This document shows, piece after piece, positions 44,480 to 47,400 of a stretch of DNA of 64,000 nucleotides. A program made the position numbers. Origin of the DNA: Octopus sinensis (lineage: Eukaryota). Positions within the stretch are counted from its first letter, which is position 1, and each line of letters starts with the position of its first letter. The stretch lies in assembly GCF_006345805.1 (NCBI RefSeq), contig NC_043003.1, positions 25,420,001 to 25,484,000 on the forward strand. Reading direction: 5' to 3'.

Positions 44480-47400
44480 TTACTTATATATAAAGTATAC
44501 TAGCCATCTCAATATGGCTAACCACTAGGGGTGGGTGTTACTGTAGCTTTTTAGCCCAGGAGATCATCGTCTCCAGCTGGCTTTAGACACAATTTCTGTG
44601 CCCTTATGATATTTGCAAAGGGAGGTCATCCCTCTTGTAAACCTAAGTGATACGCATGGACTGCAGTTTCGAGATTATTGTCTCTTGTCAACACACGATA
44701 ATCACCGGTTTTCGATGAGGAGAGACCTGTTTGCGAATATCTATTTAATGTTTTTCCCAGTAACCACTGACACTGATTTCGAAAAACGGTCTGAAAGCAA
44801 TAATAAATCTCTGAATGAGATGTAAACAGTAAGCGCTTGACAACGTAAAGTATACTAGCCATCTCAATATGGCTAACCACTAGGGGTGGGTGTTACTGTA
44901 GCTTTTTAGCCCCAGGAGATCATCGTCTCCGAGATTTATTATTGCTTTCAGACCGTTTTTTGAAATCAGTGACAGTGGTTACTGGGAAAAACATTAAATA
45001 GATATTCGCAAACAGGTCTCTCCTCATCGAAAACAGGTGATTACCGTGTGTTGACAAGAGACAATAATCTCGAAACTGCAGTCCATGCGTATCACTTAGG
45101 TTTACGAGAGGGGATGACTGCCCTTTGCAAATATCATAAGGTCACAGAAATTGTGTCTAAAGCCAGCTGGAGACGATGATCTCCTGGGGCTAAAAAGCTA
45201 CAGTAACACCCACCCCTAGTGGTTAGCCATATTGAGATGGCTAGTATACTTTACGTTGTCGAGCGCTTACTGTTTACATCTCGTTCAGAGATTTATTATT
45301 GCTTACTTATATATATTTATCCACTAATGCAGTGTGAGCACTCATTCTCATTGATGAATATTAGCATTTATATTGAGTCATCTCAAATAACGCGGGTTTT
45401 TCATTTGCATGAACTAACAGTCGGATGGGGACAGGATAAACTACCTGGACCAACTAGCTATAAAAGCAGGTAGTGACTTTACCTTGAACTTATTCTTAGT
45501 GCAAGTTTTGAAGAGTGCAGTTCAATTTTAAGTTATTTTTACAAAGCTATAATGGAAGTGACAAAGGAGCATATTCAGCATATTTTGCTTTATGAGTTCA
45601 ATAAAGGTAACTATGCAAATGAAAGTGAGACATCTGCATGCCATTGGAAAAGTCAGCAAATTGGGTCAATAGGTTCTTTACAAATTTTCTGAGTCTAACC
45701 ATATGCAGAGAGCAGATGTATGCTCTTCTTTGTTGTCACGTCTCACAAATGAACTTTTTTCAACCGAATAATGACTGGTGACGAGAAATGGGTTCTCTAT
45801 AAATATGTCAAGTGCTGAAGACAGTGGGTAGAGAAAGGAGAAATACCAGCACCCCCGGCTAAAGAAGGTTTTCACCCATGTAAGGTGTTGTTATCTATTT
45901 GGTGGGATATGAAAGGTTTAATCCACTTTGAGCTTTTAAGCCCAAACCAAATGATAACAAAAGGGATCTACTGCAAGCAGCTTGAGTGGCTTAAGTCAGT
46001 GCTAGAAGGAAAATGACCATCCTTGGTTTCAAGATAAAAGGTGTTCTTCCATCAAGATAATGCTCAGCCACATGCAGTGAGAATGACATTACAAAGGTTG
46101 GAGCAGTTTGAATGGGAAACGATGCCCCACCTGCTACATTTACTGGACATTGCCCCATCTGATTATTGTTTATTCCGTAGTCTTCAAAATCATTTGGATG
46201 GAAAAAAATATGATTTCTGTAGACGATGTCAGAACAGTACTGGAGGAATATTTTTCGTCATGGACAAGTGAAATTTGGAAGAGGGGCTTTGCAAGTCTAC
46301 CAGAGAGATGGAAGAGCATTGTAGAAAATGAAGGAGAGCATATTTTGGACTAAAAAAGAACTTTGTTTATCTTAATTTTGAAAAATAAAAGCATAAAAAA
46401 CACATTATTTATGGGATGATCCACTCGGAGTGGTTGGTGTAAGGAAGGGCATCCAGCTGTAGAAATTCTGCCAGATCAGAGTGGAGTCTGGTGCAGCCAT
46501 CTGGTTCACCAGACCTCAGTCAAATTGTCCAACCCATGCTAGCATGGAAAGTGGACGTTAAACGATGATGATATATATATATATATATATATAGTGTATC
46601 CCGGTCGAACCGTCCAACCCGTGCTAGCATGGAAAATGGATGTTAAACGATGATGATGATGATATATATATATATACTGTATATACATACACACTTATAT
46701 ACACGTGTATTTGTTCCCCACCTCCACTTGACAACCATTGTTCATTTGTTTACTTAGCAGCAGCTTAGTAATTTGGCATAAGAGACCAATAGAATAAATG
46801 CCAGCCTTAAGAATAAGTACTGGGGTTGGTTCATTTGACTAAGAGCCTTCAAGGTGGTACCACAGCATAACTGTAGTCCAATGACTGAAACAAGTAAAAA
46901 AGTAAAGGGTTAATGTTGAAGAGTTTTTGAAACATAATCACAGAAGAGATAATACTGTGATGGTATAAGGAAACTATTCTCTTTACTGGAGCCTATATAA
47001 CTCTTTTAATATCAACCCTATCCTGAAACTTCCCTTGTAAGGCTTTGACTGAGATTCACCAAGCAGTGATTTAACATGATTGGATGCTTAAATTTCTAAT
47101 GACCATAGTGATTACATTTGTGTTATCGTTAAATTATAAATATGAGAAGTGAACATTATGTGTGTGTATATATGTGTGTGTGTGTGGGTGACTTTGCAGT
47201 TTCAGTTTGAATTCACAAATGAGAGATTTATCTAGAAACTGATTAGACATTGTGCTTCACTTATGACTATTCCATAAAGATTTTTGGTTAAAAAAGAAAT
47301 TTCAAGAAAACTCAACAAAACCATATCCTTCTTACCTTTCCAGAAAGCTGATTCTGAGAACATGCATTCCTCATATTGATTTGGTACCTATTACTAACAG

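What the first reader, a model, noticed from the sequence alone, without database searches (positions are those of the whole stretch)
44491..45304. Cephalopod retrozyme-like element: circularly permuted ~355-nt monomer carrying hammerhead ribozymes, inserted as a head-to-head pair
Seen: a non-coding ~355-357-nt unit present as 1.24 copies (ribozyme sense on minus) joined at 44930/44931 to 1.05 inverted copies (sense on plus). The pair is flanked by a 13-bp direct repeat in an (AT)n tract, with 2-nt microhomology at both outer ends. Each arm is longer than one monomer, the arms start and stop at different points of the unit, and none of the four ends coincides with the ribozyme cleavage site. 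Established: small tandem non-LTR retrozymes with type I hammerheads produce circular RNAs in several metazoans, and Penelope-like elements carry minimal hammerheads and form tandem or inverted repeats. Inference: this is a genomic footprint of an octopus ribozyme-containing circRNA that was reverse-transcribed around the circle from both target nicks, probably by a Penelope-type RT in trans. I do not know whether this family has been described.
Basis: partly seen in the sequence, partly recalled or inferred. Interest (0 to 1): 0.92.

Follow-up and report, generated by a model that had tools for sequence, protein, structure and literature searches.

The report
Head-to-head hammerhead retrozyme-like insertion
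A small non-coding mobile element carrying a variant hammerhead ribozyme sits in a TA-repeat as two opposed copies, each longer than one unit; this fits the already described retrozyme and Penelope-type retroelements and is not a new kind of element.

Summary
A 440-nt arm (44491-44930, sense on minus, 1.24 units) abuts a 374-nt arm (44931-45304, sense on plus, 1.05 units). The unit is 355-357 nt, and an exact 13-bp direct repeat flanks the pair.

Rfam finds no hammerhead, and the canonical core string is absent from the element. My own descriptor finds one type I hammerhead per arm. It has the architecture published as typical for metazoan hammerheads, and a U3-A8 core pair in place of C3-G8, a covariation documented in nature.

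Both arms run through the predicted cleavage site, so the template was a circle or an uncleaved tandem transcript. The geometry matches priming of reverse transcription from both target nicks, which a Penelope-like element protein does in vitro.

Circle versus linear oligomer is not resolved. The inner end of the right arm lies 34 nt from the outer end of the left arm in unit coordinates. That also fits one-pass twin priming on a linear transcript of at least 2.4 units.

Copy number, host taxon, RNA and cleavage activity could not be tested. Verdict: a plausible new member of the known non-LTR retrozyme / Penelope-dependent class, of moderate interest.

The parts
44381..44492 (.). Microsatellite target, (TATG)n / (TG)n running into (TA)n. 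The insertion lies at its right edge.
   Evidence: Tandem Repeats Finder rows 44381-44479 (period 4) and 44453-44492 (period 2); sequence.
44480..44492 (.). Left copy of the 13-bp target-site duplication. Its last 2 nt overlap the arm end.
   Evidence: Exact 13-mer found only here and at 45303-45315 in the window.
44491..44930 (-). Left arm: 440 nt, 1.24 units, ribozyme sense on the minus strand. The sense 5' end is at 44930 (unit position 86) and the sense 3' end at 44491 (unit position 170).
   Evidence: Direct repeats with spacing 355/356 and inverted blocks I1-I4; alignment; unit coordinates.
44653..44697 (-). Type I hammerhead motif with a U3-A8 core, identical over its 45 nt to the right-arm copy. 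Predicted cleavage between 44659 and 44658.
   Evidence: Descriptor scan.
44931..45304 (+). Right arm: 374 nt, 1.05 units, ribozyme sense on the plus strand. The sense 5' end is at 44931 (unit position 205) and the sense 3' end at 45304 (unit position 221).
   Evidence: Direct repeat with spacing 357 and the inverted blocks.
45045..45089 (+). Type I hammerhead motif. Helix I has 6 bp, with a further 5 bp beyond an internal loop spanning 45037-45095. The core is TTGACAA. Helix II has 4 bp with a 6-nt loop, followed by GAA. Helix III has 2 bp with a 4-nt loop and lies inside an 8-nt palindrome. Position 17 is C. Predicted cleavage between 45083 and 45084.
   Evidence: Descriptor scan; energies and dimer fold.
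45303..45315 (.). Right copy of the 13-bp target-site duplication. Its first 2 nt overlap the arm end.
   Evidence: sequence.

Best explanation
This is one insertion of a small non-coding retroelement. Its unit of about 356 nt carries a type I hammerhead ribozyme motif with a U3-A8 core pair, which makes it a non-LTR retrozyme-like element that depends on a Penelope-type enzyme.

Proposed mechanism:
1. An endonuclease / reverse transcriptase supplied in trans cut both strands of a (TA)n tract with a stagger of 9 to 13 bp.
2. Each 3' end primed cDNA synthesis on element RNA, using 2 nt of microhomology. The sense 3' ends therefore lie outward next to the duplicated target, and the 5' ends meet in the middle.
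3. The RNA copied was continuous across the ribozyme cleavage site and longer than one unit. It was either a ligated circle copied around more than once, or an uncleaved tandem transcript of at least 2.4 units copied once. I put these two options at roughly 45:55.
4. After insertion the arms diverged by about 3%.

This copy has only one ribozyme per strand, so it cannot release a unit-length RNA by itself. If transcribed, it would fold into a hairpin of about 325 bp.

Shown: the anatomy, the target duplication, the motif, the lack of coding capacity and the folds. Inferred: the RNA intermediate, the enzyme, the order of events and ribozyme activity.
For: Anatomy and target duplication.

The termini are not inverted repeats of each other (8 of 30 positions identical), and the symmetry axes do not lie at the junction. 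This argues against a DNA transposon or a fold-back duplication.

Hammerhead motif:
- The descriptor finds 2 loci in the window, both in the element, against a shuffle mean of 0.06. A relaxed descriptor finds the same 2 against a shuffle mean of 0.2.
- The architecture equals the published description of canonical metazoan type I motifs: helix I of 6 bp, helix II of 4 bp, helix III of 1-2 bp capped by a 2-4 nt palindromic loop (PMC4209133 passages).
- U3-A8 covariation is reported in Schistosoma Penelope-like elements. It is also reported in several natural hammerheads, and that paper states such covarying ribozymes had been shown active in vitro (PMC3088659 passage).
- Both arms share the double change, so it was already in the template.

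RNA folds:
- The dimer fold forms an 8-bp intermolecular helix III, at -36.5 kcal/mol against 2 x -14.3 for two monomers.
- The circular unit folds better than shuffles: z = -3.4, with 0 of 200 shuffles as stable, for both units.

Class features:
- GC is 0.41-0.42.
- There is no long ORF. The longest stop-free run is 88 aa in three tandem units.
- There is no tRNA.
- These match the stated features of non-LTR retrozymes: 150-450 bp units, GC below 50%, target duplications longer than 4 bp, and self-paired circles.

Enzyme:
- A purified Penelope-like protein cleaves and extends both target strands, prefers AT-rich DNA and starts reverse transcription internally (PMC11167929 main text).
- Penelope-like elements typically carry an inverted 5'-truncated copy next to a partial tandem, and Naiads favour (TA)n (PMC8557442 passages).

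Post-insertion decay: 4 of the 10 substitutions between arms are CpG transitions (my reading).
Against: - No Rfam hammerhead or other ribozyme model matches, even at E<=10 on a 96-nt slice.
- The descriptor statistic is post hoc.
- As an isolated 64-mer, the catalytic fold (-9.1 kcal/mol) is 5.2 kcal/mol less stable than the minimum-energy fold (-14.3).
- In pairwise mutagenesis of a type III hammerhead, only the G:C swap of this core pair restored activity, and all other double mutants were low (PMC9901934 passage). U3-A8 activity here is therefore uncertain.
- There is no second copy of the unit in the 64 kb, so multi-copy status is untested.
- No RT or GIY-YIG domain is present in any of the 17 ORFs of at least 120 aa.
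- The host taxon is not established (one search was uninformative).
- Each arm has one ribozyme only, so the locus does not meet the 'hammerhead in all tandem repeats' definition of an active retrozyme (preprint 10.64898/2026.07.22.740005, Figure 1 legend).
Confidence: 0.62

Rival explanations
1. The reader's narrower version, nested in the best explanation. The template was a unit-length circular RNA, and both cDNAs were made by rolling-circle reverse transcription with strand displacement.
For: Both arms exceed one unit and cross the cleavage site.

The parts copied twice within an arm (85 nt plus 17 nt) differ only by one homopolymer indel.

The circular unit is strongly self-paired.

Abundant retrozyme circles and this very model are published for a coral, a mussel and an axolotl (PMC7229834; PMC7761336).
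Against: On a 357-nt circle the two primed sites are only 51 nt apart. Each polymerase would have to displace the other's product and its own.

Nothing in one locus separates a circle from a tandem transcript.

For the Penelope-like element tested in vitro, unprocessed RNA was the dominant substrate and ribozyme mutants did not affect insertion.
Confidence: 0.28
2. Narrower version, also nested in the best explanation. The template was one linear, uncleaved transcript of a tandem array, at least 850 nt (2.4 units) long, copied once by classical twin priming. The right arm was primed near the 3' end. The left arm was primed 34 nt upstream of the point where the right arm stops.
For: In unit coordinates the right arm's inner end (205) lies 34 nt downstream of the left arm's outer end (170). 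This is the small junction deletion expected in twin priming as described for L1, a model I recall and did not read here.

No strand displacement is needed.

Multi-unit transcripts are the proposed substrate of Penelope-like elements, and multimeric retrozyme RNAs are seen in axolotl.
Against: The adjacency has a chance probability of about 0.1 to 0.2 or more, depending on what one allows. That is my own estimate from 35/357, not a test.

The model needs a transcript left uncut at two hammerhead sites, although the dimer fold that favours cleavage is predicted to be stable.

No tandem source array is seen in the window.
Confidence: 0.35
3. The hammerhead-like motif is a chance or dead resemblance. 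The element would then be an ordinary short retroposon or satellite fragment, inserted by any LINE-type machinery, with no ribozyme biology.
For: All Rfam searches miss it.

The core is non-canonical at two positions.

U:A at this pair was not among the active double mutants in one deep-mutagenesis study.

The descriptor was post hoc.
Against: A full three-helix motif with all the other core bases, a G-C pair closing helix II and a palindromic helix III is expected about 0.06 times per 64 kb of both strands.

The two core changes are compensatory and known in nature.

The element has no poly(A) or simple-repeat tail and no tRNA-related part, which LINE-dependent SINEs usually have.
Confidence: 0.15
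4. The structure is a DNA-level product. It would be a transposon with long terminal inverted repeats or a foldback element, an inverted duplication made during replication or repair, or two successive independent insertions.
For: The arms are 97-100% complementary in blocks. The whole 814 nt folds as a hairpin of -624 kcal/mol.
Against: The outer termini are not inverted copies of each other: 8 of 30 positions are identical, and they lie at unit positions 170 and 221.

The symmetry axes, computed, lie near 44871 and 45049.5, not at the 44930/44931 junction. This excludes a snap-back palindrome.

The only direct repeat flanks the pair, and neither arm has its own.

A 13-bp duplication is long for cut-and-paste transposons; that statement is from my recall.
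Confidence: 0.07

Closest known systems
Metazoan non-LTR retrozymes (Cervera & de la Pena 2020, PMC7229834; mussel units of about 350-390 bp)
   Same: A non-coding unit of a few hundred nt, with GC below 50% and one type I hammerhead per unit. Helix III is weak and palindromic. The predicted circle is self-paired. The target duplication is longer than 4 bp. The insert is longer than one unit.
   Different: Here there are only 1.24 and 1.05 units, arranged head-to-head rather than as a direct tandem array. There is one ribozyme per arm. The core pair is U3-A8. No RNA data or copy number are available. No sequence comparison with published retrozymes was possible. No cephalopod example appeared in the papers I searched, and supplements were not seen.
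Penelope-like elements and their pseudo-LTR hammerheads (PMC4209133, PMC8557442, PMC11167929)
   Same: Partial tandem plus an inverted 5'-truncated copy. AT-rich or (TA)n targets. Both target strands used as primers. Internal start of reverse transcription. A U3-A8 variant occurs in Schistosoma elements, where pairs of motifs 100-700 bp apart on opposite strands were also noted.
   Different: There is no RT / GIY-YIG ORF. The repeat period is 355-357 nt, so the template was not a pLTR-ORF-pLTR transcript. The hammerhead has a helix III and the 'canonical' dimensions, not the minimal form described for most of these elements. Homology of the unit to a pseudo-LTR could not be tested.
L1 twin-priming inversions
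   Same: An inverted 5' segment joined to a direct 3' segment inside one target duplication. The two segments are adjacent on the template, with a small deletion (34 nt here).
   Different: There is no poly(A). The template is repetitive or circular. The enzyme is presumably of the Penelope type.

Membership tests
Hammerhead ribozyme, type I | Three helices around the core, with helix I open and helices II and III closed by loops. | tested here: met
   The descriptor hit at 45045-45089(+) and 44653-44697(-) has helix I of 6/6 pairs, helix II of 4 bp and helix III of 2 bp. The drawn fold has a computed energy of -9.1 kcal/mol.
Hammerhead ribozyme, type I | Conserved core: C3 U4 G5 A6 N7 G8 A9, G12 A13 A14, the A15.1-U16.1 pair, and H17. 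| tested here: inconclusive
   All positions are present except 3 and 8, which are U and A. This pair is a documented natural covariation. It was not among the active double mutants in one type III mutagenesis study.
Hammerhead ribozyme, type I | A match to the curated covariance models (Rfam hammerhead families). | tested here: not met
   0 hits at gathering score. No hammerhead among 19 hits at E<=10. 0 hits on the 96-nt slice.
Hammerhead ribozyme, type I | Site-specific self-cleavage. | not testable with these tools
   Needs in vitro transcription of monomeric and dimeric constructs.
Non-LTR retrozyme | Non-coding unit of 150-450 bp with GC below 50%, and no LTR, PBS or PPT. | tested here: met
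   The unit is 355-357 nt with GC 0.41-0.42. No long ORF. No terminal direct repeats other than the unit itself. PBS and PPT were not searched for specifically.
Non-LTR retrozyme | Direct tandem repeats with a type I hammerhead in every unit, which is the 'active' definition of preprint 10.64898/2026.07.22.740005. | tested here: not met
   Each arm holds only 1.24 or 1.05 units and one motif. By that preprint's wording, this locus is at best a non-transposing offspring copy.
Non-LTR retrozyme | A multi-copy family expressed as unit-length linear and circular RNA. | not testable with these tools
   No other copy in the window. No eukaryote genome or RNA-seq collection was available. The predicted circle is well paired, which is only consistent with this feature.
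Autonomous Penelope-like element | An ORF with a reverse transcriptase and a GIY-YIG endonuclease. | tested here: not met
   The element has no ORF. None of the 17 window ORFs of at least 120 aa has an RT or GIY-YIG domain. Shorter or decayed remnants were not searched.
Autonomous Penelope-like element | Insertion signature: a partial tandem plus an inverted 5'-truncated copy, in an AT-rich target. | tested here: met
   compared with the descriptions.
tRNA-derived SINE | A tRNA-related head with internal pol III boxes, and an A-rich or simple-repeat tail. | tested here: not met
   ARAGORN found 0 genes in the window. Neither sense 3' end has an A-rich tail. The pol III boxes were judged by eye only.
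TIR or foldback DNA transposon | The two termini are inverted copies of each other. | tested here: not met
   8 of 30 terminal positions are identical, and the ends lie at unit positions 170 and 221.

The most novel reading that the evidence does not exclude
This may be the first described retrozyme family of a cephalopod, if the host is one. It would be a unit of about 356 nt whose hammerhead has the canonical architecture but works with a natural U3-A8 core pair. The locus would be a fossil showing that retrozyme RNA, continuous across its own cleavage site, is inserted by Penelope-type priming from both nicks. That would be physical evidence for the hypothesised link between retrozymes and Penelope-like elements. 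With many copies, it would also offer a way to tell circular from linear templates by their end statistics.
Probability: 0.35. Interest if true: 0.55.

Novelty: new member of a known kind. Interest (0 to 1): 0.4.

Why it matters
How animal retrozymes move is still a hypothesis in the papers I read. A target-primed reverse transcriptase, probably of a Penelope-like element, is thought to copy the RNA into tandem cDNA. Shared ancestry with pseudo-LTRs has been argued from vertebrate data.

A young insertion with clean target duplications, both arms longer than a unit and both crossing the ribozyme site, shows what the integration intermediate looked like. If the family is abundant, the distribution of arm ends could discriminate rolling-circle from linear-oligomer templates without any wet work.

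The U3-A8 core in a 'canonical' type I frame would also be a convenient natural test of that base pair. By itself, one copy adds a member to a known class and does not change the picture.

Tried and rejected
Rfam. The whole window at gathering score gave 0 matches. The 1.2-kb region at E<=10 gave 19 matches, all miRNA-like or low-complexity, and none was a ribozyme. The best was a plant family, MIR6217, at 74.4 bits against a gathering score of 110. I read it as an artefact of the long inverted repeat. The 96-nt slice gave 0 matches.

Canonical core string. There were 8 matches in the window against 4.5 expected, and none lies in the element.

Other copies of the unit in the window. None: the best outside match is 15 nt at E = 0.15.

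Other hammerheads in the window. None, with either the strict or the relaxed descriptor.

Penelope-type ORFs. I scanned 17 of the 17 ORFs of at least 120 aa, plus 2 shorter ones. The hits were an IS1595-like DDE domain, C2H2 zinc fingers, and sub-threshold EF-hand and HTH_48 matches. There was no RT or GIY-YIG domain.

Host taxon. One protein-atlas call on the 352-aa transposase ORF gave only mixed eukaryotic clusters, so the 'cephalopod' label stays unverified.

The bacterial promoter/terminator scan is not meaningful for a eukaryotic locus, and I did not use it.

An exact 39-nt hammerhead string searched against bacterial and archaeal genomes gave 0 matches. This says nothing about eukaryotes.

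Literature for a cephalopod hammerhead or retrozyme:
- retrozyme / hammerhead / octopus; 97 papers held at least 2 of the 3 terms, and 25 were listed.
- hammerhead ribozyme / Penelope-like / cephalopod; 45 papers, 25 listed.
- hammerhead ribozyme + squid; 6 papers, none relevant.
- the 2017 hammerhead review has 0 mentions of molluscs or cephalopods.
- The only paper joining the terms is PMC8557442. It mentions cephalopod Naiads, which lack canonical hammerheads.
- An Octopus vulgaris repeat annotation reports recently active Penelope families and has 0 mentions of hammerhead or ribozyme.
- (twin priming + Penelope): 3 papers, none on this subject.

Supplements were closed and not requested. 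Supplementary Figures S6 and S9 of PMC7229834 and file S1 of PMC8557442 may list invertebrate or cephalopod elements that I could not see.

Not available or closed, so unchecked: the search for homologous proteins, the search of protein representatives, the viral and metagenome collections, and any eukaryotic genome or RNA-seq resource. Copy number, end distribution, pseudo-LTR homology and expression therefore remain untested.
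Full report
ANATOMY.

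The left arm shows direct repeats of 67 nt (100% identity, spacing 355) and 27 nt (89%, spacing 356). The right arm shows one of 20 nt (95%, spacing 357). Four inverted blocks tie the arms together: 185 nt at 97%, 136 nt at 99%, 85 nt at 93% and 67 nt at 100%.

The left arm (44491-44930, 440 nt) is 1.24 units. The right arm (44931-45304, 374 nt) is 1.05 units.

I rebuilt one unit from each arm, starting at the predicted ribozyme cleavage site. The two units align over 357 columns with 12 differences: 10 substitutions and 2 single-base gaps. Four of the 10 substitutions are CpG-to-TpG/CpA changes, by my reading of that alignment. This is what decay after insertion would give.

An exact 13-mer lies at 44480-44492 and again at 45303-45315. 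It occurs nowhere else in the window. With one mismatch allowed there are 5 matches against 0.33 expected. Each copy overlaps an arm end by 2 nt.

The insertion sits at the right edge of a (TATG)n/(TA)n microsatellite. No other copy of the unit exists in the 64 kb.

IS THERE A HAMMERHEAD? The curated models say no.
- Rfam gives 0 matches at gathering score for the whole window.
- On the 1.2-kb region at E<=10 it gives 19 matches, none to a ribozyme. The top hit, MIR6217 at 74.4 bits against a gathering score of 110, is an artefact of the inverted repeat.
- On a 96-nt slice it gives nothing.
- The canonical CTGANGA...GAAA string has 8 matches in the window, and none lies in the element.

By eye, and then with a descriptor of my own, each arm holds one complete type I motif, at 45045-45089(+) and 44653-44697(-):
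- Helix I has six pairs, extended by five more beyond a small internal loop.
- The core reads TTGACAA.
- Helix II has 4 bp, closed by a G-C pair, with a 6-nt loop.
- GAA follows.
- Helix III has 2 bp with a 4-nt loop, and the whole of it is an 8-nt palindrome.
- Position 17 is a C.

The descriptor allows a C-G or U-A pair at positions 3 and 8. It finds exactly these two loci in the window. In 100 dinucleotide shuffles of the window the mean was 0.06 loci; 6 of 100 shuffles had one and 0 of 100 had two. A relaxed version finds the same two, against a shuffle mean of 0.2. The descriptor was written after I had seen the candidate. The two loci are also copies of one ancestor, so this counts as one post hoc observation.

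Published descriptions bear on the motif as follows.
- Passages of PMC4209133 describe canonical metazoan type I hammerheads as having helix I of 6 bp, helix II of 4 bp, and helix III of 1-2 bp capped by a 2-4 nt palindromic loop. This motif matches those dimensions.
- The same paper reports a U3-A8 covariation in Schistosoma Cercyon elements, with about 1,300 hits.
- PMC3088659 (passage) states that C3 and G8 form a pair that covaries to U3-A8 in several natural hammerheads. It adds that such covarying ribozymes had been shown active in vitro.
- Against this, a pairwise mutagenesis of a type III hammerhead found strong rescue only for the G:C swap, with low activity for all other double mutants in that region (PMC9901934 passage).

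Both arms carry the same double change, so it was present in the template.

As an isolated 64-mer, the catalytic fold has -9.1 kcal/mol against -14.3 for the minimum-energy fold. Two copies together fold to -36.5 kcal/mol with an 8-bp intermolecular helix III, against -28.6 for two separate monomers. This fits the 'active as a dimer' behaviour described for weak-helix-III hammerheads. Cleavage itself is untested.

THE UNIT. It is non-coding: the longest stop-free run is 88 aa across three tandem units in any frame. GC is 0.41-0.42.

As a circle it folds better than its shuffles. One unit gives -99.8 against -81.2 +/- 5.5 kcal/mol (z = -3.4, 0 of 200 shuffles as stable), and the other unit gives the same z. 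The antisense strand gives z = -2.4 (2 of 200).

ARAGORN finds no tRNA-like part. Neither sense 3' end has an A-rich tail.

HOW IT GOT THERE. Counting from the predicted cleavage site (45083|45084 on plus, 44659|44658 on minus), the arm ends lie as follows:
- Right arm: inner 5' end at 205, outer 3' end at 221.
- Left arm: inner 5' end at 86, outer 3' end at 170.

Both arms run through the cleavage site and past their own starting point. A self-cleaved linear monomer therefore cannot have been the template.

The sense 3' ends face the duplicated target and the 5' ends meet in the middle. This is the geometry expected when each nicked target strand primes cDNA synthesis.

Three DNA-level alternatives fail.
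- The outer termini are not inverted copies of each other (8 of 30 positions identical), so this is not a TIR or foldback transposon.
- The symmetry axes of the inverted blocks lie near 44871 and 45049.5 (computed), not at the 44930/44931 junction, so this is not a snap-back palindrome.
- The only direct repeat flanks the pair and not either arm, so these are not two separate insertions.

The main text of PMC11167929 shows that a purified Penelope-like protein cleaves and extends both strands of its target, unlike R2 or L1. It prefers AT-rich DNA and starts reverse transcription at internal sites of the RNA that are not homologous to the target.

PMC8557442 (passages) describes partial tandems with an adjacent inverted 5'-truncated copy as the typical structure of these elements. 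It also reports a (TA)n bias for Naiads.

PMC4209133 noted pairs of minimal hammerheads 100-700 bp apart on opposite strands in Schistosoma.

The locus therefore looks like a Penelope-type integration of a short hammerhead-bearing RNA. The 355-357-nt period in both arms shows that the template was not a pLTR-ORF-pLTR transcript.

CIRCLE OR LINEAR OLIGOMER? It fits the data but is not required by them.

In unit coordinates, the right arm stops 34 nt short of the point where the left arm starts (205 against 170). That is the pattern of classical twin priming on a single template, a model I recall from the L1 literature and did not read here. In it, the first cDNA halts near the second priming site and a small deletion marks the junction. 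One linear, uncleaved transcript of about 850 nt (2.4 units), copied once, would give exactly this structure with no strand displacement.

On a 357-nt circle the two start sites are 51 nt apart. Each polymerase would have to displace the other's product and its own.

The adjacency could arise by chance about one time in five to ten (my estimate), so it is only a hint.

The Penelope study found unprocessed RNA to be the main substrate, and ribozyme mutants had no effect on insertion. Axolotl tissues contain multimeric retrozyme RNAs. On the other hand, mussel retrozyme RNA is mostly circular.

The parts copied twice within an arm (85 nt and 17 nt) differ by one homopolymer indel only. Both models allow this. 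I leave the topology open at about 45:55, circle to linear.

WHAT IT DOES NOW. Each arm has one ribozyme, so the locus cannot release a unit-length RNA on its own. A transcript through it could be cut once. The whole 814 nt would fold into a near-perfect hairpin of about 325 bp (-624.4 kcal/mol against -209.5 +/- 7.2 for 20 shuffles). That it might serve as a double-stranded RNA substrate is inference only.

COMPARISON AND NOVELTY. The closest class is the metazoan non-LTR retrozyme. Its stated features are 150-450 bp units, GC below 50%, a type I hammerhead, target duplications longer than 4 bp and self-paired circles, with mussel units of 350-390 bp.

A 2026 preprint argues from vertebrates, three insects and a coral that these elements derive from Penelope pseudo-LTRs (abstract, introduction and first part of results read). 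By its definition of an 'active' retrozyme, with a hammerhead in all tandem repeats, this locus does not qualify. It would be an offspring copy.

I found no paper describing a hammerhead or retrozyme in a cephalopod. An Octopus vulgaris repeat annotation lists 30 recently active Penelope families and does not mention ribozymes. Supplements were not seen.

Whether the window is cephalopod DNA was not established. No Penelope ORF lies in the window: none of the 17 ORFs of at least 120 aa has an RT or GIY-YIG domain.

VERDICT. The locus is a plausible new member of a known class, its proposed mechanism is already in print, and it is a tidy single-locus example of it. Interest is 0.4.

The decisive steps are a genome-wide copy census with end mapping, covariation across copies, a cleavage assay and a search for the circular RNA. 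None could be run here.

Noticed in passing
window 45477-46350 (+): Probable decayed mariner/Mos1-like transposase just right of the insertion. An ORF piece beginning MEVTKEH gives a sub-threshold HTH_48 match (E = 1.2e-4, 22.6 bits against a cut-off of 24.1). Further pieces lie in other frames. A 77-aa piece that looks like the catalytic region to my eye gave no Pfam hit at E<=0.01.
   Followed up: partly
window 2969-4027 (-): A 352-aa open frame with an ISXO2/IS1595-like DDE transposase domain (Pfam E = 1.2e-16). The protein atlas places its look-alikes in mostly eukaryotic clusters (arthropods, nematodes), so it is a eukaryotic IS1595-like transposon or a domesticated copy.
   Followed up: partly
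window 8490-9020 (-) and 18743-19624 (-): Two open frames full of C2H2 zinc fingers (zf-H2C2_2 E = 6e-47 and 1.7e-37). The first coincides with an 84/168-nt tandem periodicity at 8480-8939, as expected for finger repeats.
   Followed up: no
window 22670-23209: Three tandem copies of a 174-nt unit (84% matches, score 805). Their nature was not examined; they could be a SINE-like or satellite repeat.
   Followed up: no
window 44738-45004 (-): A sub-threshold Rfam match to the plant miRNA family MIR6217 (74.4 bits, gathering score 110, E = 7e-16). It spans the arm junction and is a false lead, produced by the long inverted repeat.
   Followed up: yes
window 49940-50687 and 54122-54716: Several overlapping open frames of 129-232 aa, in different frames and on both strands, with no Pfam match. 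This suggests stop-poor, possibly low-complexity or repetitive DNA rather than genes.
   Followed up: no
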